From a virus: 64,000 nt of DNA. Shown piece after piece: positions 1 to 7,451 of this stretch. The stretch lies in IMG/VR virus record IMGVR_UViG_3300027749_000063, positions 1 to 64,000 of that record; one strand, given 5' to 3'. Both the position numbers and the translations under genes were made by a program. Position 1 is the stretch's first letter. The number at the start of each line of letters is the position of its first letter. The notes under the pieces are model-generated. The model was not told the origin of the DNA, searched no databases, and worked only from the letters and a program-made list of their open reading frames with translations.

Positions 1-113
1 TTGTTTGTAATACATGATTTTTAATATTAGAGGTTAAACATAAATTAAGGCAACAACTATGCCAATTGGTAATAATTAGAACCTAGGGTAAGATCTCTCC
101 TACCCTAGATTGA

Positions 114-560
114 TTAACGAACTACAACTTGATCTTTAGTAATAATAATACTACTAGTTCTCTCGATGTGAATGATAGTTCCGTGGAAATCTATCTTAAT
201 CATAGAATTAGCTACGTTTTCTTTGATTGTAGATAGTTTAGGAGCTACTGTAGGTGTTTGGATAGCTCCTAAAGCCATTTTATATGCTTTACGTGCTTTT
301 TGTTTCCGCAAGCGCCTTTTCGTTGCAACCATTCTTGCTGCAGGCTCACTCATTGGAATTAAACCTTGTTTAATCATTTCAGTTCTTACAAGATAAATAA
401 CACCTGCGTTTCTTAACTCAAAATACTGAGGATACTTAGCTTTTACCTCAGAAGCTTTTTTACCAGCTTTAAACTCTGTAAGTAACTCACTAATTGCCTG
501 CTCACTAAAGTTTAACTTGTGAAATGGCCTGTAATTGATTGTTTGTGTTTGGTTTTCCAT
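114..560 (-). CDS. hypothetical basic protein, possibly DNA-binding
   Basis: 148-aa ORF with a K/R-rich helix (KRRLRKQKARKAYK); A-rich leader; hairpin just downstream. Confidence 0.6.
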   Translation of the reverse strand: MENQTQTINYRPFHKLNFSEQAISELLTEFKAGKKASEVKAKYPQYFELRNAGVIYLVRTEMIKQGLIPMSEPAARMVATKRRLRKQKARKAYKMALGAIQTPTVAPKLSTIKENVANSMIKIDFHGTIIHIERTSSIIITKDQVVVR

Positions 561-590
561 AATTTTTTGTTTTTTGTTTTTGTTATTTTG

Positions 591-1121
591 TTATTTTTCA
601 AATGAATACACTATCATTGGGCTCTTGTTAGGGCTTAGATAGCGGTAGATTTCGGTTACTTTGTATCCACTAAAGTCTTCTAATAGTTTAGGAAATACAT
701 TGTAACGAAAGTCATCAAGGTCTTTAGCTCCATAGAATTCTAATTTGTTTCCAAATAATTCTCTTTTACCTTGAATGGTTAGACAAATAGTCTTAGCTGT
801 TGAATCTTGAAAGTAAGAGATGAAGGTATTTACAAGCATTGGACTTAGATTAATACATAAGTCTAGCCATACAAAGTCATATCTGCCCTTAAGGGTAAAG
901 ATGTCTCTGTTTAAATACTCTACATTTTGTGGTTTAAACTTTCTACCACGTTTGTAAGTTTCTGTGTCTAGTTCACAACAAGTGATTTTAGCATTAGGAA
1001 ACTTAGACTCAAAGAGAAAGTTGTCAGCAGGCAGGGATAATATATCCCCACCTGTATACTTTTGACTGATAATCTCTCTGACATCTTCTTTGACTGAATA
1101 GTCTTGAAAGTTAAATGACAT
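591..1121 (-). CDS. class I SAM-dependent methyltransferase-like protein
   Basis: Rossmann-like motif order: DILSLPAD, ITCCELD, NRDIF, YDFVWLDLC. Confidence 0.6.
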   Translation of the reverse strand: MSFNFQDYSVKEDVREIISQKYTGGDILSLPADNFLFESKFPNAKITCCELDTETYKRGRKFKPQNVEYLNRDIFTLKGRYDFVWLDLCINLSPMLVNTFISYFQDSTAKTICLTIQGKRELFGNKLEFYGAKDLDDFRYNVFPKLLEDFSGYKVTEIYRYLSPNKSPMIVYSFEK

Positions 1122-1141
1122 AATTTATCTGTTAGTTTGTT

Positions 1142-1516
1142 TTAGTCTTGCCAATCAATTACTGATACAACTTCAAGTCGCTCAATAAAAGTCTTAAGAT
1201 AGTTTTTACCTACTCTAATATTACCTAGAACAATGTCTGGTATTATTTCGTAGTCTTGAGGTACAACTACTTCTTCCCGTACAGAAATGATAGTTTGTTT
1301 AGTAGGAAGCTGAGTTAAGGTCTTTAAATACCTTTTCTCATCTAAGATAGAGTCAATGGTGAGATGTTTAAACATGTTACTGATTTCAACTTCTCTAACT
1401 CTCTCTAGTTTTTTAGAGATAAATCGCTTAGTCCTTCCTTGAATAGGAAGTACATTGATAAGAGACTCAGGACTAGCTGAATACACTTTTTCTGCTTTGA
1501 TAATTCTTTTTCTCAT
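1142..1516 (-). CDS. hypothetical protein
   Basis: 124-aa ORF in the co-oriented gene array. Confidence 0.6.
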   Translation of the reverse strand: MRKRIIKAEKVYSASPESLINVLPIQGRTKRFISKKLERVREVEISNMFKHLTIDSILDEKRYLKTLTQLPTKQTIISVREEVVVPQDYEIIPDIVLGNIRVGKNYLKTFIERLEVVSVIDWQD

Positions 1517-1559
1517 TCTGTATAGGTTTAATTATTAGGTTTGAAATAAATTAAAGCAA

Positions 1560-1591
1560 TAAAAAAGGGAAGCTCACACTCTTCCCTTTTT
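1560..1591 (-). terminator. intrinsic terminator
   Basis: AAAAAGGGAAG-loop-CTTCCCTTTTTT. Confidence 0.7.
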
Positions 1592-1937
1592 ACCCTAACA
1601 GATATGATTGCTTTAATATAGAAAATATGAAAAACTATAGTGTGAGTTCAGCAATAGTTTAAGATAACTAACGAGTGTTAGTTCTTGGTAGTCAAGATAA
1701 GCGCTAACTTACCTTGACTAATAAAGAAAAGCTTTAAGTTTTAAGGGTTACTGATTGAGTGCAATGAGTGACGCCTACCTACTATTAACCCTTTTTCGGT
1801 ATTTAAAACACTCTACTTCTCAATTACAGCTTAAATGCTTCTCTTTATAGTAAGAAGAAGCCCCAAAATCAGATCTTACGGTATGAAGTTGGGGACATTC
1901 TGTAGCCAAGAGATACTATCTCAAGGGGGGAACACTG

Positions 1938-1945
1938 CAAATATA
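1938..1945 (-). promoter_or_regulatory. Bacteroidota-type -7 promoter element
   Basis: TATATTTG (TAnnTTTG) upstream of a structured non-coding stretch. Confidence 0.55.
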
Positions 1946-1988
1946 CTTAAAAACTATAAATCAGAGAAGAGAAAAAGGAAAGAAGGGG

Positions 1989-2303
1989 TTAATCTTCTTT
2001 CAATATTGTAATCTCTGATCCTTTGTGTATATAGATAGGTCCTATATAACCGTCTTTGATGATGTATGTTCTTTCTTCTTCTGGTAACTTATAAGAGATT
2101 ACGTAGTTCCACTCAGAGAATTTAAAGACAAAGCAATCTAAGACTTTAGGAGAAGGATGTTTGCCTTCGCCTATCAGATCCTCTACAAATAATGTATCAG
2201 ATAAAGTAAGAGGCATCATACCCTCTAGACTTTTAATAGGGAATAGTTGGGCTTTCAGGTTACTGAAGCCACATACGATTAAGATTAAGAACAGTTTTTT
2301 CAT
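1989..2303 (-). CDS. secreted/periplasmic hypothetical protein
   Basis: Signal peptide MKKLFLILIVCGFSNLKA followed by Gln. Confidence 0.7.
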   Translation of the reverse strand: MKKLFLILIVCGFSNLKAQLFPIKSLEGMMPLTLSDTLFVEDLIGEGKHPSPKVLDCFVFKFSEWNYVISYKLPEEERTYIIKDGYIGPIYIHKGSEITILKED

Positions 2304-2306
2304 TAG

Positions 2307-2525
2307 TTACATGATATAATCTGTAGCTGCATGATGCAATTCTTTTAAAGATTGAGTTGCTTTCTCATACAATTCAATTAATTTAACTGAACTAGGATCG
2401 GGATTCTCATTGTTTGATTCTGTAAGAAACTCAATTCCTTCTTCTAAAGCACGTAATATTGAGCTAATCTCAAGATCTAGATTTAATACGTGTTCAAATA
2501 CATTTCCTGTTACCATTTTTACCAT
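2307..2525 (-). CDS. hypothetical helical protein
   Basis: 72-aa ORF tightly packed in the array. Confidence 0.6.
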   Translation of the reverse strand: MVKMVTGNVFEHVLNLDLEISSILRALEEGIEFLTESNNENPDPSSVKLIELYEKATQSLKELHHAATDYIM

Positions 2526-2550
2526 TTTATTTTTAGTTTAGTTTGTTTAG

Positions 2551-2622
2551 TAGCCTGTAGCGGATTCAAACCACTGTTGCCAAGATGAAATCTTGGAGTC
2601 CTAATCACTAGACGAACAGGCC
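2551..2622 (-). tRNA. tRNA-Glu (TTC)
   Basis: Acceptor stem GGCCTGT/ACAGGCT; anticodon arm CCAAG-ATTTCAT-CTTGG; T-loop TTTGAAT; no encoded CCA. Confidence 0.85.
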
Positions 2623-2636
2623 ATACTTAATTAAGC

Positions 2637-2813
2637 TTATCTATACTCTAGGAATTCTCCATGATAGTAACGCTTAGATTTTTTACCACAACCATGTGGT
2701 ACATTTTTAGAAGTTGCACAACCCTCTAAACAAATACAAATTGTAATTATTAAAGAGAACCATACAAGGGCTTTGAAGGCCGTACTTTCGCTAAAAGGAT
2801 TTTCTGGCTTCAT
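2637..2813 (-). CDS. small predicted lipoprotein (58 aa; not in the ORF track)
   Basis: MKPENPF...ALVWFSLIITICICLEG-C, a hydrophobic stretch ending in a lipobox-like motif. Confidence 0.6.
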   Translation of the reverse strand: MKPENPFSESTAFKALVWFSLIITICICLEGCATSKNVPHGCGKKSKRYYHGEFLEYR

Positions 2814-2905
2814 AGTCTTGAAATTACTAAGTAGTTAGCATAAGCATCTTCATAGGTCAAAGCCCAGATTCTGTAGCCGTCAATGATAAATAATTGTTTT
2901 TCCAT
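2810..2905 (-). CDS. 31-aa microprotein (not in the ORF track)
   Basis: MEKQLFIIDGYRIWALTYEDAYANYLVISRL; ATGA overlap with the next gene. Confidence 0.55.
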   Translation of the reverse strand: MEKQLFIIDGYRIWALTYEDAYANYLVISRL

Positions 2906-2908
2906 TTG

Positions 2909-3115
2909 TTAAGTTGTTAAAAGGTTAAGTTCGCCCTTAAGGGCATTAAAAGGATTCTGAGAGCCTACTTGATCCATTATCTCTCTTAGCTCTTGAGTAT
3001 GTTCTCTGAATTCTATTTCAGAAATAGCAGAAATCGCTTTGAGTACATCAAGTTGCATAAGTAAACGATAACCATTCTCTAGTTGGTTAATCTCTTCTTG
3101 AATTAAGTCATCCAT
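2909..3115 (-). CDS. hypothetical protein
   Basis: 68-aa ORF in the packed array. Confidence 0.6.
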   Translation of the reverse strand: MDDLIQEEINQLENGYRLLMQLDVLKAISAISEIEFREHTQELREIMDQVGSQNPFNALKGELNLLTT

Positions 3116-3118
3116 AGC

Positions 3119-3259
3119 TTATAAGAAGTGCCAGCTTTTAAAACCAGCAGAGTTAAGTCTTACCATAATTAATTTACCTTCCTTGTCATAAGCTCTTGCA
3201 AGGATTTTACCTAAAAGGATTTTAGGCTTCATAACGCTTAGTACTTGTTGATTAATCAT
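3119..3259 (-). CDS. 46-aa microprotein (alternative start at 3232; not in the ORF track)
   Basis: MINQQVLSVMKPKILLGKILARAYDKEGKLIMVRLNSAGFKSWHFL fills the gap between its neighbours. Confidence 0.5.
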   Translation of the reverse strand: MINQQVLSVMKPKILLGKILARAYDKEGKLIMVRLNSAGFKSWHFL

Positions 3260-3449
3260 TGCTCTTAGATTCTAAGTTATACAAATAAGCCATAACAGCC
3301 ATAAGACAAAGAGTTAAACACTCTACAGCAAAGATGTAATCAAAAGCATCTGTTCCTACTGCTCTAACTAAGTCAGGAATAGTAAGAAGAAATACAATAC
3401 CTGCACATACAGCGATGACAGATAAGAAAGTGGACGGTTTAATTTTCAT
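3252..3449 (-). CDS. small 2-TM membrane protein
   Basis: Two hydrophobic helices in 65 aa. Confidence 0.65.
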   Translation of the reverse strand: MKIKPSTFLSVIAVCAGIVFLLTIPDLVRAVGTDAFDYIFAVECLTLCLMAVMAYLYNLESKSND

Positions 3450-3473
3450 ATTTAGTTAGTTTTTGTTTTTAGT

Positions 3474-3755
3474 TTAGTTTGTTTTAAATTTAGATACTTG
3501 GTAAAGTAAATCTGCTAGTAGTTCTGGATCTAAATGATCCATAGAAAAGAACTGTTCGCTATCTTCTACATAAGTGATAGTCTTCCAAACATTATCTAGA
3601 GTTAACATTACCCAATCACCCTTAGAGTCCATAACAGTTAATTCTGCAACTTCGCTTTTATACTCACCTTCTTCATAGAATCCTAGTATTGCCATATAAC
3701 CATTTTTAAAATGTACAACAGTACCGTTTTGGTGTTTTTCAAATCCGTAATCCAT
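3474..3755 (-). CDS. hypothetical protein
   Basis: 93-aa ORF with an AAACT-repeat leader. Confidence 0.65.
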   Translation of the reverse strand: MDYGFEKHQNGTVVHFKNGYMAILGFYEEGEYKSEVAELTVMDSKGDWVMLTLDNVWKTITYVEDSEQFFSMDHLDPELLADLLYQVSKFKTN

Positions 3756-3856
3756 AAGTTTAGTTTAGTTTAAGTTAGTTAGTTAGTTTAGTTTATACTA
3801 GTTGGTATTATACCATTAGGTATAAAAAAGTTAAAAGAAGTTAAAAGAAGTTAAAA
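3756..3856. repeat. short tandem repeats: (T)TTAG array and AAGTTAAAAG x~3
   Basis: Visible at 3756-3797 and 3828-3856. Confidence 0.7.
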
Positions 3857-3909
3857 AAACTACAAGGTCCTCTAGACGTGTTAGTAGGATAAACCATACC
3901 TTGTAGTAG

Positions 3910-4026
3910 TAGTACATTTGGGATTCAAACCCAAGATAGTATCCATCAGCTCAACGATAAGCAGATACTCCCATTGGGGTGCCGTCATTCGTTGATTGGG
4001 AACGTGTGTCACCTCGCCTATGTACT
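3910..4026 (-). ncRNA. tRNA-like RNA with expanded anticodon loop and long variable arm
   Basis: AGTACAT/ATGTACT acceptor stem, TTGGG-TTTGAAT-CCCAA T-arm, TCCCA/TGGGA stem with 23-nt loop, GTATCT/GGATAC arm. Confidence 0.7.
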
Positions 4027-4540
4027 ATTTAAGATTATTTACCTACCAAGCCAAAAGTTCGCTTAGTCTTTGTAAGGACATCTTCTGGATAAAGAAGATG
4101 GTAATAAGAGAGAAGAGAGAAGACATAAGAATAAGGAAGAAAGGGAAAGGGTAATCCTTTAATGTCTTTTAATGTCTTTTAAGGTTATTTAACGTAAAGT
4201 CAACAATTTATATATAACGTACCATGTCAACCCCACAATTACCCACTTTTAAGTGTTAAATAGAAGATTGAAGGGAGTGGTTTCCCACTTTCTACCACTA
4301 CATATACCCCCCAATTGTCAGTAAAAAGTTAAACATTATGACAATTGTCTCCCAAAACACGGGGTTATGACTTACAAAAGTTAAACAAAACCTAAATCAG
4401 GTAGTTTGATGACATTAGACTGACAATATACCCGCAATATAAGAGAGAGATAAGAGAGTGATAAGAGAATTTAATTTCTCTTCTTCTCACTGCTGTCTGA
4501 TTACTGTCTGATTTAGGGGGTATTTCTACCCCCCTTCAGA

Positions 4541-5080
4541 TTAATCTTGCTCTACTGCTACGCTTTCTACCACATTCTCTGTGATAGCACTGAGGTCAGT
4601 CTTACGTACAAGGATGTCAAGCATCTCTGCATCGTAAGCACGAAGGAATGACTTACGGTAAATTGCTTTTCCGTTCTCGTCTGTTACCTTAGCACCTGAG
4701 CGGTCTTTCTTGTAGTTACTTTCGTAGACTACGGCTTGACCTTTGTCATTACCTACAACACCTAAAGCTACTGCTTCTGCAAGTGATGTTGTTTCGATTA
4801 CTTGAATACCATAGTTGTTGTTTACCAACTGTGATAGATTTACATCTAACTGAACAGGGGAGTCTTTGTCACCTGTAATAGTAGAAGCGTCCATTCCAAA
4901 AATCTTTGCGAACTTTTCTTCGCTAAAATTCTGAATGCAAGTCTTTGTCCATTCGCTACCTTTACCTGTAAAGACAGCCATAGGATTGTTGTTGCGAATA
5001 CCGCAAAGAACTGAGAGAGAGTTTGCTTTGTTGCGCCAAACGCTTAAAGCAATGATGGGAGAAATAGATGGGTTAAACAT
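4541..5080 (-). CDS. hypothetical protein (beta-rich, acidic tail; SSB-like function is speculative)
   Basis: 179-aa ORF, DENGKAIYRK motif, acidic C-terminus; terminator follows. Confidence 0.6.
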   Translation of the reverse strand: MFNPSISPIIALSVWRNKANSLSVLCGIRNNNPMAVFTGKGSEWTKTCIQNFSEEKFAKIFGMDASTITGDKDSPVQLDVNLSQLVNNNYGIQVIETTSLAEAVALGVVGNDKGQAVVYESNYKKDRSGAKVTDENGKAIYRKSFLRAYDAEMLDILVRKTDLSAITENVVESVAVEQD

Positions 5081-5155
5081 AGTAAGGTAGATAGGAGGAA
5101 ATCACAACGAAGCAAGGAAGGAGGAGACCACGTTAAATAAGCAAAAGAAGAAGCA

Positions 5156-5296
5156 TTACGCTTCTACCCAAATAATACCTTCGCAGGTCTTTATCCTTAA
5201 CCTTTTTACAATTCCGTTAAATGATATGCGACCTAAGATTGTTCCGTATGGTAGGCTTCTGCCTACGATAGGTAATGGTTTAAGTATATTGTACAT
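5156..5296 (-). CDS. 46-aa microprotein (not in the ORF track)
   Basis: MYNILKPLPIVGRSLPYGTILGRISFNGIVKRLRIKTCEGIIWVEA; preceded by the CTCTTCTC motif, followed by a hairpin. Confidence 0.55.
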   Translation of the reverse strand: MYNILKPLPIVGRSLPYGTILGRISFNGIVKRLRIKTCEGIIWVEA

Positions 5297-5332
5297 AGAT
5301 TAGAGAAGAGAAAAAGGGGCTTTAGCCCCTAA

Positions 5333-5707
5333 TTACGGATTACATGGGTCGAAAGTACTTATCTTTCTTACTGCCCAAGGATACTTTTCTTTCATCTTGT
5401 GTACAATGTGTTCAGACCAGTTTATTGCTAAGTTCTCATAAGCCCAGATAAAGTTCCTAGGATAAGTCTCAATACACTGCTCTACTGTAATTGAGTTAAG
5501 TTCAGGTTTCTTGAAGAACCAGCAATCATGACTAAGCATAGTTCTGTTACGCTTACCTGTTCTTTCTCCTTCACACCACCAATGGCTTATTCCTGTAGTT
5601 CTAATAGGTGCATTAGGTAGGTTTTCTTTAATCTGTTCTAAGTTTTGTTTTTGGTCTCTCTGAGCAATCATTGCTAGAGTTCTTTCTTGTATAGTTTGTA
5701 TATCCAT
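5333..5707 (-). CDS. hypothetical protein
   Basis: 124-aa ORF bounded by the CTCTTCTC motif and a terminator. Confidence 0.65.
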   Translation of the reverse strand: MDIQTIQERTLAMIAQRDQKQNLEQIKENLPNAPIRTTGISHWWCEGERTGKRNRTMLSHDCWFFKKPELNSITVEQCIETYPRNFIWAYENLAINWSEHIVHKMKEKYPWAVRKISTFDPCNP

Positions 5708-5749
5708 ACTAAGGAGAAGAGAAAAAACTACCCTGTTATGCAGGGTAGT

Positions 5750-5841
5750 GTAGGTAGTTAACCCGCTCTTGGTCTTACGTGAACAAACTATACGTTCACC
5801 GCACTGTGGCTTTGGTAATTATAGGAGTAGGATATACCTAC
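5750..5841 (-). ncRNA. candidate structured RNA or attenuator
   Basis: GTAGGTA...TACCTAC closing stem and GTGAAC/GTTCAC hairpin, between two terminators. Confidence 0.4.
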
Positions 5842-5867
5842 TAAATAAGAGAAGAGAAAAAAGATGC

Positions 5868-6191
5868 CTATTGGGCATCTCTTTCTGTTCCATAGTCTAT
5901 GTATCTACCATCAGGGTAAATCTCATAGTAATGCTCTACCTCACCCTTAGAGATAAGATAGATTTGGTCACAAGTCTTAGTACGTACAGTAAGTAACAAC
6001 TTACTATCAAGGTTAATCACACAATTCTTGATGTGATTAACACTCGCCAGTATGTTCTTACATACAGTACTATCGTCAGCAGTGATAGCACCAAAGGATT
6101 TAACTACGTTAATCTTTGGCTTAGTTGTCCTGCTTACTTGACCAGAAAGGGAAGCACACAACAGGAAGGATAGGAAGAAGAAGTATTTCAT
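5868..6191 (-). CDS. secreted hypothetical protein
   Basis: Signal peptide MKYFFFLSFLLCASLSG followed by Gln. Confidence 0.65.
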   Translation of the reverse strand: MKYFFFLSFLLCASLSGQVSRTTKPKINVVKSFGAITADDSTVCKNILASVNHIKNCVINLDSKLLLTVRTKTCDQIYLISKGEVEHYYEIYPDGRYIDYGTERDAQ

Positions 6192-6205
6192 AATAAAGAG
6201 AAGAG

Positions 6206-6229
6206 AAAAAGATAACCGAAGTTATCTTT
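6206..6229 (-). terminator. intrinsic terminator with cUUCGg loop
   Basis: AAAGATAAC-TTCG-GTTATCTTTTT. Confidence 0.75.
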
Positions 6230-6236
6230 ATTGTCA

Positions 6237-6461
6237 TTAGAAGCATCTTACTTGTTTGATTGAGATGTTCTTCATTTCATAGTACCATGATAACAACACC
6301 ACTCCAAATAGTCCTGCACATGCTACCACGAAGGCAGCAACCACAGTCTCTTCCTTCTCCAAGTATTGTACATCAAACATCATCACAACTACAATCATCA
6401 TGATTCCAACCAGAGACAACTTCTGCTGTCTCTTGTATTTTTTTACAAGTGTATCCATCAT
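6237..6461 (-). CDS. small 2-TM membrane protein
   Basis: Two hydrophobic helices in 74 aa. Confidence 0.65.
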   Translation of the reverse strand: MMDTLVKKYKRQQKLSLVGIMMIVVVMMFDVQYLEKEETVVAAFVVACAGLFGVVLLSWYYEMKNISIKQVRCF

Positions 6462-6694
6462 CTAGAGAAGAGGATACCCATAGGCAATCTTAGTAGGGGG
6501 TACCCTCAGCTTGTTTTTTAGGGTAGGGGGGAGCAATTATGTATCCCCCACCCTCTTATAACCATAAAGAAAAGTAGGGGTCTAAAAATTTTGGGTAAAA
6601 ATTTTGGGAGGAAAATCTGTTTCAGACTTACCTTTGGTTTATGTATATAAGTAATGAATTAGAGGAAACAGCTACCTGTAAGGTTTTGGTTAGT

Positions 6695-7381
6695 TTAATA
6701 GGTTCTAATTAGTTTAAGAATTGCTTCTTCTGTTTCTACCCAACTATGTTCTATTGCTTTGGTTACTGTATTTTCTATTTCAGAGATTAATCTAAGTTCT
6801 TTAGCCGAGGCTAAGTTACGCATTCCTTGGATGTGTTCTCCAAATACTCGTAAATTAATCTCTCTAGCGTACTTAGGGTAATCTGGTTTTTCTAAAACTC
6901 TAGATATTGCTCCGTTCATAGGTTTGAACTTATCTCCTGCTTCCATCCTATCAAAGATTAAACTATCAGTCAACCAAATAACAACCTTAGCATATAACAT
7001 AGGATTAAGTTCCATAGCAATTAGAGTCCAGATGTAAGAATCGCATACTACGTTTCTATTTTCTCCTCTTCCTGTGGTCTTCCAAACACCTAGTTTTTTT
7101 AAGTAGTTTATAAGTCCTTGACTTTCAATCATTTCGGTAAAAACGTGAAAAGACGTTTTTATGAGATCCCTCTCATTGAGTAGGTGATATACTTTCTCTT
7201 GGGTAAATCTGAATTGTAATATATCATTAACTCTTCTTTCATTCCAGCCATGCATCCACCTAGCTTTCTCATAGGCTTGTTGAAGGTCTGTTACAGACAT
7301 AAATCCATTTTTTGTTTCTTGTCTTACCTTAATCCCAAACACTTCCCTGTCTGTAGATTGCATTGTTACATTTGTTTTCAT
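6695..7381 (-). CDS. KilA-N domain DNA-binding protein
   Basis: KVRQETKNGFMSVTDL, TTGRGE..V, IAMELNPMLYAKVVIW match the KilA-N pattern; TATATTTG promoter at 7395-7402. Confidence 0.8.
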   Translation of the reverse strand: MKTNVTMQSTDREVFGIKVRQETKNGFMSVTDLQQAYEKARWMHGWNERRVNDILQFRFTQEKVYHLLNERDLIKTSFHVFTEMIESQGLINYLKKLGVWKTTGRGENRNVVCDSYIWTLIAMELNPMLYAKVVIWLTDSLIFDRMEAGDKFKPMNGAISRVLEKPDYPKYAREINLRVFGEHIQGMRNLASAKELRLISEIENTVTKAIEHSWVETEEAILKLIRTY

Positions 7382-7451
7382 AAGTTTATAAATACAAATA
7401 TATAAAGAAATTACTTTAGTTTATATTAGTTTATATTAATTTATACTTCTC

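What the first reader, a model, noticed from the sequence alone, without database searches (positions are those of the whole stretch)
3910..4026. 117-nt tRNA mimic with a 23-nt 'anticodon' loop that can pair with its variable arm
Seen on the - strand: perfect 7-bp acceptor stem, short D-like arm, TCCCA/TGGGA stem with a 23-nt loop, a 30-nt variable arm and a perfect T-arm. TCAACGA in the enlarged loop is complementary to TCGTTGA in the variable arm (kissing loop or alternative fold). A stem with a T-run follows at about 3853-3907. It cannot decode as an ordinary tRNA. Inference: a novel tRNA-like RNA, such as a decoy for anticodon nucleases, a ribosome/RelA modulator, or a precursor with a tiny intron.
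Basis: partly seen in the sequence, partly recalled or inferred. Interest (0 to 1): 0.75.

Follow-up and report, generated by a model that had tools for sequence, protein, structure and literature searches.

The report
Oversized non-decoding tRNA-shaped phage RNA
An uncultured freshwater phage carries a conserved 117-base gene for an RNA that keeps a tRNA's outer frame but cannot read codons; it is a new family of a long-known but unexplained kind of phage RNA (like phage T4's 'species 1' RNA).

Summary
On the minus strand, 4026..3910 has a 7-bp acceptor stem, a 3-bp D stem and a UCCCA/UGGGA stem with a 23-nt loop. It also has a 5-6-bp stem with a 20-nt loop in the variable-arm position, a perfect T arm and discriminator A. 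A hairpin with a U7 run follows.

ARAGORN and Rfam do not call it. I found relatives in 3 IMG/VR phage records and 5 further metagenome contigs, giving 5 variant types. All 24 modelled pairs stay paired, and 12 pairs change on both sides. In one relative the whole acceptor stem, 3 T-stem pairs and 2 variable-arm pairs are rewritten. The RNA fold is therefore under selection.

The 5' part of the big loop (UCAACGA) and its complement in the other loop (UCGUUGA) never vary. The rest of the big loop varies freely in sequence and length (23-39 nt). No single deletion turns all variants into a normal tRNA.

The gene is a sporadic, swappable unit in the early region, always near tRNA-Glu(UUC). Relatives carry other oversized, leucine-tRNA-type look-alikes.

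Verdict: a real, non-decoding, tRNA-framed RNA. It is a new member of a known kind (T4 rnaC-like), which this scan has noted repeatedly in other phages. Its function is unknown; tRNA mimicry is the best guess.

The parts
3910..4026 (-). Gene for the 117-nt tRNA-shaped RNA, from acceptor position 1 to the discriminator A. No CCA is encoded; the trailer is CUA, as for the phage tRNA-Glu.
   Evidence: Sequence; homologues and covariation; model R2 scores it at 149.8 bits.
4020..4026 (-). Acceptor stem, 5' strand (AGUACAU). It pairs with 3911-3917.
   Evidence: All 7 pairs change on both sides in L100 (GACUUUG/CAAAGUC). A1-U72 becomes G-C in L099. C-G becomes U-G in L002.
4002..4017 (-). D arm: 3-bp stem GCG/CGU and 10-nt loop AGGUGACACA, similar to the D loop of class II (Leu-type) tRNAs.
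   Evidence: G-U becomes A-U in L100. The D loop resembles AGGUAGACAC of the relatives' tRNA-Leu(UAA). The GG is lost in L100.
3969..4001 (-). Arm in the anticodon-arm position: stem UCCCA/UGGGA and a 23-nt loop.
   Evidence: The CCC/GGG pairs are invariant in all 8 sequences. The stem register shifts by one base in the G001-type variants, which use CCCAA/UUGGG.
3989..3995 (-). Invariant UCAACGA at the 5' end of the big loop, complementary to 3951-3957.
   Evidence: It is conserved in all 5 variant types although my search pattern did not require it. The duplex energy is -8.9 kcal/mol.
3974..3988 (-). Hypervariable 3' part of the big loop (a linker).
   Evidence: Relatives have unrelated, A-rich sequence here, so the whole loop is 23-39 nt. 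The length differences of the element (+19, +14, +7 nt) are not multiples of 3.
3938..3969 (-). Arm in the variable-arm position: stem AGUAUC/GAUACU and the 20-nt loop UGCUUAUCGUUGAGCUGAUG, which contains UCGUUGA at 3951-3957.
   Evidence: Two pairs change on both sides in L100, giving GAUAUC/GAUAUC. Part of the loop was forced invariant by my search pattern.
3918..3934 (-). T arm UUGGG-UUUGAAU-CCCAA.
   Evidence: Three of 5 pairs change on both sides in L100 (GCAGG/CCUGC). Loop variants are UUUGAGU and UUUAAAU. It has the same T loop as the phage tRNA-Glu.
3852..3907 (-). Terminator-like hairpin (9-bp stem, large loop) followed by U7.
   Evidence: Fold. It is identical in G001. Other relatives have a different small hairpin plus U run whose stem covaries (GGCA/UGCC, GACA/UGUC, GAGUA/UACUC). 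In G002 the same hairpin follows a different RNA motif.
4027..4100 (-). Conserved upstream block of this genome slot: hairpin at 4100-4079, CUAAGCGAACUUUUGGCUUGG at 4066-4046, and CUUAAAU at 4033-4027. It does not belong to the RNA.
   Evidence: The block is present in G002, G004 and G017, where small protein genes follow instead. It is absent upstream of the element in G001. There is one copy in the window.
2551..2622 (-). tRNA-Glu(UUC), the only ordinary tRNA of the record and the constant neighbour of the element.
   Evidence: ARAGORN; Rfam 47.7 bits. It lies beside the element in the contigs that hold an element and were scanned for tRNAs, except the short L096, and 5 nt upstream of it in L100.

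Best explanation
Shown:
- This is a gene for a structured RNA descended from a class II (long-variable-arm, leucine-type) tRNA.
- It keeps the tRNA frame: acceptor stem, D arm, T arm and discriminator A.
- Its anticodon loop (23-39 nt) and variable-arm loop (20 nt) are enlarged, so it cannot read codons.
- The fold is kept by compensatory changes.
- It is an accessory unit of the early region, exchangeable for other units.

Inferred:
- The RNA is cut out of a longer transcript that ends at the hairpin-U7.
- The host's tRNA-processing enzymes do this: RNase P at the 5' end, 3' trimming, and possibly CCA addition. The tRNA frame also makes the RNA stable.
- The invariant UCAACGA, which directly follows the CCCA stem, pairs with the invariant UCGUUGA in the other loop. 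The variable A-rich remainder of the loop acts as a slack linker. This would lock the lower half into a compact pseudoknotted body and leave the tRNA 'top half' exposed.

Most likely role (a guess): tRNA mimicry early in infection, meaning the RNA binds and occupies a host or phage protein that recognises the tRNA top half. It is not a decoder.
For: Not called as tRNA or tmRNA:
- ARAGORN and Rfam give no call, even at E <= 10.

Homologues:
- Found in 3 IMG/VR records and 5 further metagenome contigs, in 5 variant types.

Covariation:
- 24 pairs are 100% paired and 12 change on both sides.
- 0 of 500 shuffles reach this, and slid controls reach at most 1 pair.

Pattern of loop conservation:
- CCCAAUCAACGAA is invariant although the search did not require it.
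- The next 14-30 nt are unrelated, A-rich and variable in length.

Not coding:
- Length differences of 19, 14 and 7 nt rule out a conserved reading frame.

Terminator:
- A hairpin plus U run follows in the window. A covarying small hairpin follows in most relatives; in L099 no clear U run follows it, and L100 has a different hairpin further downstream.

Accessory and swappable:
- Present in 1 of 10 relatives that are at least 90% complete.
- In G002, G004 and G017 the same slot holds small ORFs and another RNA motif.

Ties to tRNA genes:
- tRNA-Glu(UUC) is always nearby, 5 nt away in L100.
- The 3' trailer (A-CUA) matches that of tRNA-Glu.

The same phage group makes other such RNAs:
- Six more oversized Leu-type look-alikes of 105-167 nt were found in relatives.
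- One of 102 nt is in the cultured Leptolyngbya phage Lbo-JY46.
Against: - There are no expression data, so the ends, CCA addition, stability and charging are all unverified.
- The loop-loop helix has no covariation because both sides are invariant, and one side was forced by my search pattern. By chance it would occur in about 3% of cases.
- A nested alternative (7-bp helix plus a GAUGG-AUA-CUAUC hairpin) also fits all sequences. It is the minimum-energy fold of the window copy.
- Core tRNA tertiary positions deviate: A8 instead of U8, U56 instead of C56, and GG is lost from the D loop in L100. A true L-shape is therefore not assured.
- Most covariation comes from one diverged sequence (L100).
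- No binding partner is identified. Neighbouring proteins have no family match.
Confidence: 0.55

Rival explanations
1. A trans-acting regulatory RNA carried on a tRNA frame. The two invariant loops are free and pair with a host (or phage) RNA. The tRNA frame only provides processing and stability.
For: The loops are invariant while the helices drift, which is typical of a sequence-specific contact. In 4 of 5 variant types the lowest-energy fold does not use the loop-loop helix.
Against: Complementary sites in the phage genome are no more frequent than chance: 13 9-mers against 22 in shuffles, and one 12-nt site. The host is unknown, so host targets could not be searched. The mutual complementarity of the two loops would be an odd coincidence for a simple guide.
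Confidence: 0.15
2. A cis-acting processing or stability element. The tRNA shape serves as an RNase P / RNase Z cutting point and as a 3' protective cap for the early transcript, and the freed RNA has no role of its own.
For: It sits at the end of a transcription unit, just before a terminator. No promoter close enough to start at position 1 was found (and reading of 4027-4100).
Against: This does not explain the strict conservation of about 40 nt of loop sequence in the central domain. A minimal acceptor/T-arm hairpin would be enough. In relatives the same slot works without the element.
Confidence: 0.1
3. A precursor of a decoding tRNA. Part of the central region is an intron, or is otherwise removed, leaving a normal anticodon arm.
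For: With introns allowed and the threshold lowered, ARAGORN proposes tRNA-Ile(UAU) with a 34-nt insert at position 31/32. Lak megaphage tRNA genes with unexplained inserts have been reported (PMC6784885). The variable stretch behaves like an intron in evolving fast.
Against: About 3000 deletions per variant were tested. Only weak, mutually inconsistent calls appeared (Ile, Asp, Leu, Thr, undefined), and none at all for L100. The insert position is non-canonical and the proposed stem has a mismatch. The region is too short for a group I intron, and no intron family matched. No RNA ligase, splicing endonuclease or similar gene was found among the ORFs scanned. Even without the big loop, the 20-nt variable-arm loop remains abnormal.
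Confidence: 0.08
4. A decaying tRNA pseudogene with no function.
For: It is sporadic among relatives. Core positions are non-canonical (A8, U56).
Against: Twelve pairs show compensatory double changes with no broken pair, and long loop segments are invariant across diverged copies. Neutral decay would break the helices.
Confidence: 0.04

Closest known systems
Phage T4 species 1 RNA (rnaC, 139 nt) and species 2 RNA (rnaD, 119 nt)
   Same: Small non-coding RNAs encoded among phage tRNA genes (annotation of NC_000866). rnaC has a canonical T arm (CCGGG-UUCGAAU-CCCGG) next to a terminal helix formed by its two ends, around a large idiosyncratic central domain. Their function is still unknown (PMC9697503).
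   Different: There is no sequence similarity; blastn of the element against 50,697 phage records found only chance hits. The element here has a perfect 7-bp acceptor stem, a D arm and a five-arm class II layout. It lies in its own unit with a terminator in the early region of a crAss-related freshwater phage. T4 makes rnaC late.
Class II tRNAs (tRNA-Leu type) of the related phages, for example tRNA-Leu(UAA) at L127:3117-3205
   Same: 7-bp acceptor stem, 3-bp D stem with a similar D loop, discriminator A, an extra arm between the anticodon arm and the T arm, and a 5-bp T stem with a 7-nt loop.
   Different: The anticodon loop is 23-39 nt instead of 7. The variable-arm loop is 20 nt instead of 3-5. 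It has A8 instead of U8 and no anticodon. It is not scored as tRNA by Rfam or ARAGORN.
Lak megaphage tRNA genes with 'enigmatic introns' (Devoto et al. 2019, PMC6784885)
   Same: Phage tRNA-shaped genes that are longer than expected and fail bacterial tRNA prediction, with highly conserved inserts.
   Different: Those were read as tRNAs with a defined anticodon once an insert is removed. Here no removal gives a consistent tRNA.
Engineered 'tRNA scaffold' RNAs, where the anticodon arm is replaced by a cargo RNA (from my own knowledge; not checked here)
   Same: The outer tRNA frame is kept and the decoding part is replaced by other structured RNA. The frame gives processing and stability.
   Different: Those are artificial constructs. 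Here the design is natural and its cargo is conserved.

Membership tests
Canonical tRNA (Rfam RF00005) | Scores above the family cut-off (29 bits) or is called by ARAGORN | tested here: not met
   No RF00005 match even at E <= 10 over 2300-4400, while the nearby tRNA-Glu scores 47.7 bits. ARAGORN default gives none.
Canonical tRNA (Rfam RF00005) | 5-bp anticodon stem with a 7-nt loop holding an anticodon | tested here: not met
   The loop is 23 nt in the window and 27-39 nt in relatives.
Canonical tRNA (Rfam RF00005) | 7-bp acceptor stem, 5-bp T stem with a 7-nt T loop, and a discriminator base | tested here: met
   Sequence; all 12 of these pairs are kept, 10 with double changes.
Canonical tRNA (Rfam RF00005) | Conserved core positions U8, G18-G19 and C56 | tested here: not met
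   A8 and U56 occur in all copies. GG is present in the D loop in 6 of 8, reduced in L097 and absent in L100. The phage tRNA-Glu also has U56.
Class II (long variable arm) tRNA | Extra stem-loop between the anticodon arm and the T arm, and a 3-bp D stem | tested here: met
   The stem AGUAUC/GAUACU lies 3 nt before the T stem and covaries. The D stem is GCG/CGU.
Class II (long variable arm) tRNA | Variable-arm loop of about 3-5 nt, and decoding ability | tested here: not met
   The loop is 20 nt and there is no anticodon.
T4 rnaC-type oversized tRNA-like phage RNAs | Encoded with phage tRNA genes; a T arm beside a terminal helix formed by the two ends; 100-170 nt with a non-tRNA central domain | tested here: met
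   tRNA-Glu lies 1.3 kb away in the window and 5 nt away in L100. The T arm of rnaC was seen. The element is 117-136 nt.
T4 rnaC-type oversized tRNA-like phage RNAs | Sequence homology to rnaC or rnaD | tested here: not met
   No match of the element in the phage collection, which includes T4. The likeness is in architecture only.
T4 rnaC-type oversized tRNA-like phage RNAs | Accumulates as a small stable RNA in infected cells | not testable with these tools
   No RNA run was listed for this DNA.
Intron-containing tRNA | Removing one segment gives a canonical tRNA in all members | tested here: not met
   Deletion scan: calls are inconsistent, and there are none for L100.
Intron-containing tRNA | A self-splicing core, or splicing and ligation enzymes, are present | tested here: inconclusive
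   No intron family matched in Rfam. No such enzyme was found among about 40 ORFs scanned, but not every ORF was scanned and the record is only 84% complete.
tmRNA | tRNA-like ends plus a tag reading frame and pseudoknots | tested here: not met
   ARAGORN tmRNA mode finds none. The length is 117 nt and no conserved frame exists.

The most novel reading that the evidence does not exclude
The RNA is a purpose-built tRNA mimic. A pseudoknotted lower body, locked by the invariant 7-bp loop-loop helix, presents only the acceptor/T-arm 'top half'. With it the RNA captures a host enzyme or defence protein that acts on tRNA ends or the tRNA elbow, early in infection. If so, the many oversized tRNA look-alikes of phages, including T4 species 1 RNA, would be a general class of RNA decoys, interchangeable with small anti-host proteins in the same genome slots.
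Probability: 0.2. Interest if true: 0.75.

Novelty: new member of a known kind. Interest (0 to 1): 0.45.

Why it matters
Oversized tRNA-shaped RNAs have been known in phage T4 for about 50 years without a function, and standard annotation misses them.

This family adds a clean case. It has clear compensatory evolution and two invariant, mutually complementary loops joined by a freely varying linker. It also has its own terminator, and it sits in an early-region slot that relatives fill with small proteins or another RNA.

That combination points to an accessory role in host takeover rather than in translation. It also gives precise mutations to test.

A cultured relative, Leptolyngbya phage Lbo-JY46, carries an unannotated look-alike, so experiments are feasible.

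Tried and rejected
- **Rfam, gathering threshold, whole window:** nothing found. It even missed the tRNA-Glu that the E-value mode finds, so the blank is weak.
- **ARAGORN:** intron and tmRNA modes give no call at default thresholds.
- **blastn against GenBank phages:** no homologue.
- **Models R1 and R2 and blastn over 50 related phage records:** only G001, G018 and G048 hold the element.
- **Four looser DNA patterns in IMG/VR:** no further members; the three extra hits are chance.
- **Pattern in 185,579 prokaryote genomes:** none.
- **The look-up of sequencing runs, kind rna:** no RNA holder listed.
- **Neighbours of L100:** IMG/VR with the single protein gave none, and longer homologues gave none. 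An alignment-based IMG/VR scan gave 14 loci without this family, though with other oversized look-alikes.
- **Intron hypothesis:** rejected by the deletion scan.
- **Coding hypothesis:** rejected by indels that are not multiples of 3.
- **Phage targets for the loops:** at chance level.
- **Pfam and PHROGs on the neighbouring small proteins:** no family.
- **Sigma-70 promoter scan:** no promoter placed so as to start at position 1.

Full report
**Setting**

The window is the first 64 kb of a 99-kb IMG/VR virus record, estimated 84% complete. Its terminase, portal and major head protein match PHROG families. By terminase, the nearest isolate is Leptolyngbya phage Lbo-JY46 (39% identity). Next come Cellulophaga phages and gut crAss-like phages, at about 30%. 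Genes 1-7400 run on the minus strand as an array of small genes with no family match. The record has one ordinary tRNA, tRNA-Glu(UUC), at 2551-2622 on the minus strand.

**Observation**

- a 7-bp acceptor stem, then AG at positions 8-9;
- a 3-bp D stem whose loop contains GG;
- UCCCA/UGGGA closing a 23-nt loop;
- (A)GUAUC/GAUAC(U) closing a 20-nt loop;
- three unpaired bases, then a T arm (UUGGG-UUUGAAU-CCCAA) and discriminator A;
- a 9-bp hairpin with U7 downstream.

UCAACGA in the first loop is the exact complement of UCGUUGA in the second. Neither ARAGORN nor Rfam (4227 families, E up to 10) reports anything here.

**Is it more than chance?**

The single-sequence evidence is modest. The fold z-score is -2.0, and a 7-nt loop complement arises in 3.3% of loop shuffles. 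However, a plain scan for a 7-bp acceptor plus T arm spaced 95-190 nt found 14 distinct cases in 610 kb of fetched phage DNA and none in shuffled copies.

The decisive evidence is comparative. Pattern scans found the element in three IMG/VR records and five further metagenome contigs. These fall into five variant types. On the eight distinct sequences:
- all 24 pairs of the cloverleaf-like model are paired in every sequence;
- 12 pairs change on both sides;
- no shuffle of 500 reaches this, and slid controls collapse to at most 1 pair.

In L100 the whole acceptor stem is rewritten (GACUUUG/CAAAGUC). Three T-stem pairs change (GCAGG/CCUGC) and two variable-arm pairs change (GAUAUC/GAUAUC). L099 changes A1-U72 to G-C, and L002 changes a C-G to U-G.

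Caveat: most double changes come from one diverged sequence. Also, my pattern forced GACACACGTT and TGCTTATCGTTGAG to be invariant.

**The central domain**

CCCAAUCAACGAA was not required by the pattern, yet it is identical in all variants. The sequence after it is unrelated, A-rich and variable, so the whole loop is 23-39 nt. It differs even in G001, whose terminase is 100% identical to the window's.

This asymmetry fits a model with three parts:
- the 5' part of the loop makes a specific contact;
- the rest of the loop is a slack linker;
- UCAACGA directly continues the CCCA stem, so pairing with UCGUUGA (-8.9 kcal/mol) would build a continuous helix of about 12 bp and a pseudoknot with the variable arm.

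This cannot be proven, because neither side varies. A nested alternative (the 7-bp helix plus a GAUGG-AUA-CUAUC hairpin) also fits all sequences and is the minimum-energy fold of the window copy. Only the cloverleaf's variable-arm stem explains the matching AG-to-GA and CU-to-UC changes in L100, so that stem is real.

**Not a tRNA precursor, not coding, not decaying**

I deleted every segment of 8-74 nt in the central region of four variants. ARAGORN then gave only scattered, mutually inconsistent calls, and none for L100. No intron family matches. No RNA ligase or splicing enzyme appeared among the ORFs scanned. Length differences of 19, 14 and 7 nt exclude a conserved frame on either strand. 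Compensatory evolution excludes neutral decay.

**Context**

The element is sporadic. It is absent from 47 of the 50 related records searched, including 9 of the 10 that are at least 90% complete. In G002, G004 and G017 the same upstream block is followed by small ORFs and another RNA motif instead. In G002 that other motif ends with the very terminator hairpin that follows the element here. The element is therefore one interchangeable unit of an early-region slot.

tRNA-Glu(UUC) lies near the element in the contigs that hold it and were scanned for tRNAs, apart from the short L096, and in L100 it is 5 nt upstream. Both genes have the same 3' trailer, A-CUA.

Relatives also hold six other oversized look-alikes of 105-167 nt. 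They have textbook Leu-type D arms, canonical T arms and unrelated central domains. Lbo-JY46 has an unannotated one of 102 nt.

**Comparison with what is known**

The architecture matches phage T4's rnaC. That RNA is annotated among the T4 tRNA genes, has a canonical T arm beside a terminal helix, and still has no known function (PMC9697503). There is no sequence homology. Lak megaphage tRNA genes with 'enigmatic introns' are a second precedent (PMC6784885). A survey of IMG/VR also lists tRNA-like candidates in general (PMC10690425). Earlier notes of this scan report the same kind in many other phages, but none with this sequence.

**Mechanism**

I commit to a non-decoding, tRNA-framed stable RNA that host tRNA enzymes process and that acts by tRNA mimicry in early infection. 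The structure and conservation are shown. The processing, the loop-loop lock and the role are inferred. A free-loop riboregulator is the main rival. The phage genome shows no enriched targets for the loops, and the host is unknown.

**Verdict**

This is a new family of a known, still unexplained kind of phage RNA.

Noticed in passing
L058 minus strand about 2150-2040 and 1850-1730; L099 minus strand about 3010-2880; L067:2219-2320 plus strand; also L059, L075, L096: A second unannotated RNA motif lies next to, or in place of, the tRNA-like unit in relatives; it is not in the window. Its layout is: a small hairpin whose stem covaries (CTATC/GATAG, CTCAC/GTGAG, CCTAC/GTAGG); then CAGTTGTAA; then a variable insert of 45-110 nt; then TTACAACTGA(A/G)TGCAGA..GAAGT. 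It has a 9-bp long-range helix and no Rfam match at E <= 1.
   Followed up: partly
L117:3489-3632, L117:4130-4234, L117:4488-4644 (plus strand); L061:569-685 (minus); L092:174-340 (minus); L097:10346-10468 (plus): Six other oversized tRNA-shaped genes (105-167 nt) occur in related phages. Five of the six have a leucine-tRNA-type D arm (L117:4488-4644 has a different one), and all have a canonical T arm, discriminator A and an unrelated central domain. Default ARAGORN calls none of them.
   Followed up: partly
PP438436.1 124040-124141, minus strand (L135:6541-6642): The cultured Leptolyngbya phage Lbo-JY46 has an unannotated 102-nt Leu-type tRNA look-alike beside its 21-tRNA cluster. Its extra arm has a loop of about 22 nt. 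It partly overlaps a 'hypothetical protein' CDS.
   Followed up: partly
window 4027-4100, minus strand, and the same slot in G001, G002, G004, G017: The slot-specific upstream block has two hairpins. The 5' arm AAGCGAAC is constant while the 3' partner differs between phages: GCTT, CGCTT or GTTCGT.
   Followed up: partly
window 3807-3834, minus strand: A promoter-like site, TTAACT-16 nt-TATAAT with TG before it (10 of 12 matches), lies upstream of gene 3755..3474. It sits in a block (TATACCTAAKGGTATAATACCAACTAGTATAAA) conserved in relatives. This is a sigma-70-type signal, not the Bacteroidota type.
   Followed up: no
window 2551-2622: The Rfam scan of the whole window at gathering threshold returned nothing. 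The same tRNA-Glu scores 47.7 bits, against a cut-off of 29, in the E-value scan of 2300-4400. Blanks from the fast-filter mode should be read with care.
   Followed up: yes
G000 88525-88848, minus strand (L114:6525-6848), outside the window: A protein here has the N-terminal domain of dATP/dGTP diphosphohydrolase (PF18909, E = 2e-29). As far as I recall, this domain is linked to phage DNA base replacement. Nearby are family A DNA polymerase, DUF932, a LAGLIDADG endonuclease and a Toprim primase.
   Followed up: no
L099:1422-1493, minus strand: A tRNA found by Rfam (39.7 bits) that default ARAGORN missed on the same locus.
   Followed up: no
window 3757-3851, minus strand: Short tandem repeats lie between the terminator and the next gene: AACTTCTTTT three times, then a run of (A)CTAA(A) units up to the ATG at 3755.
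   Followed up: no
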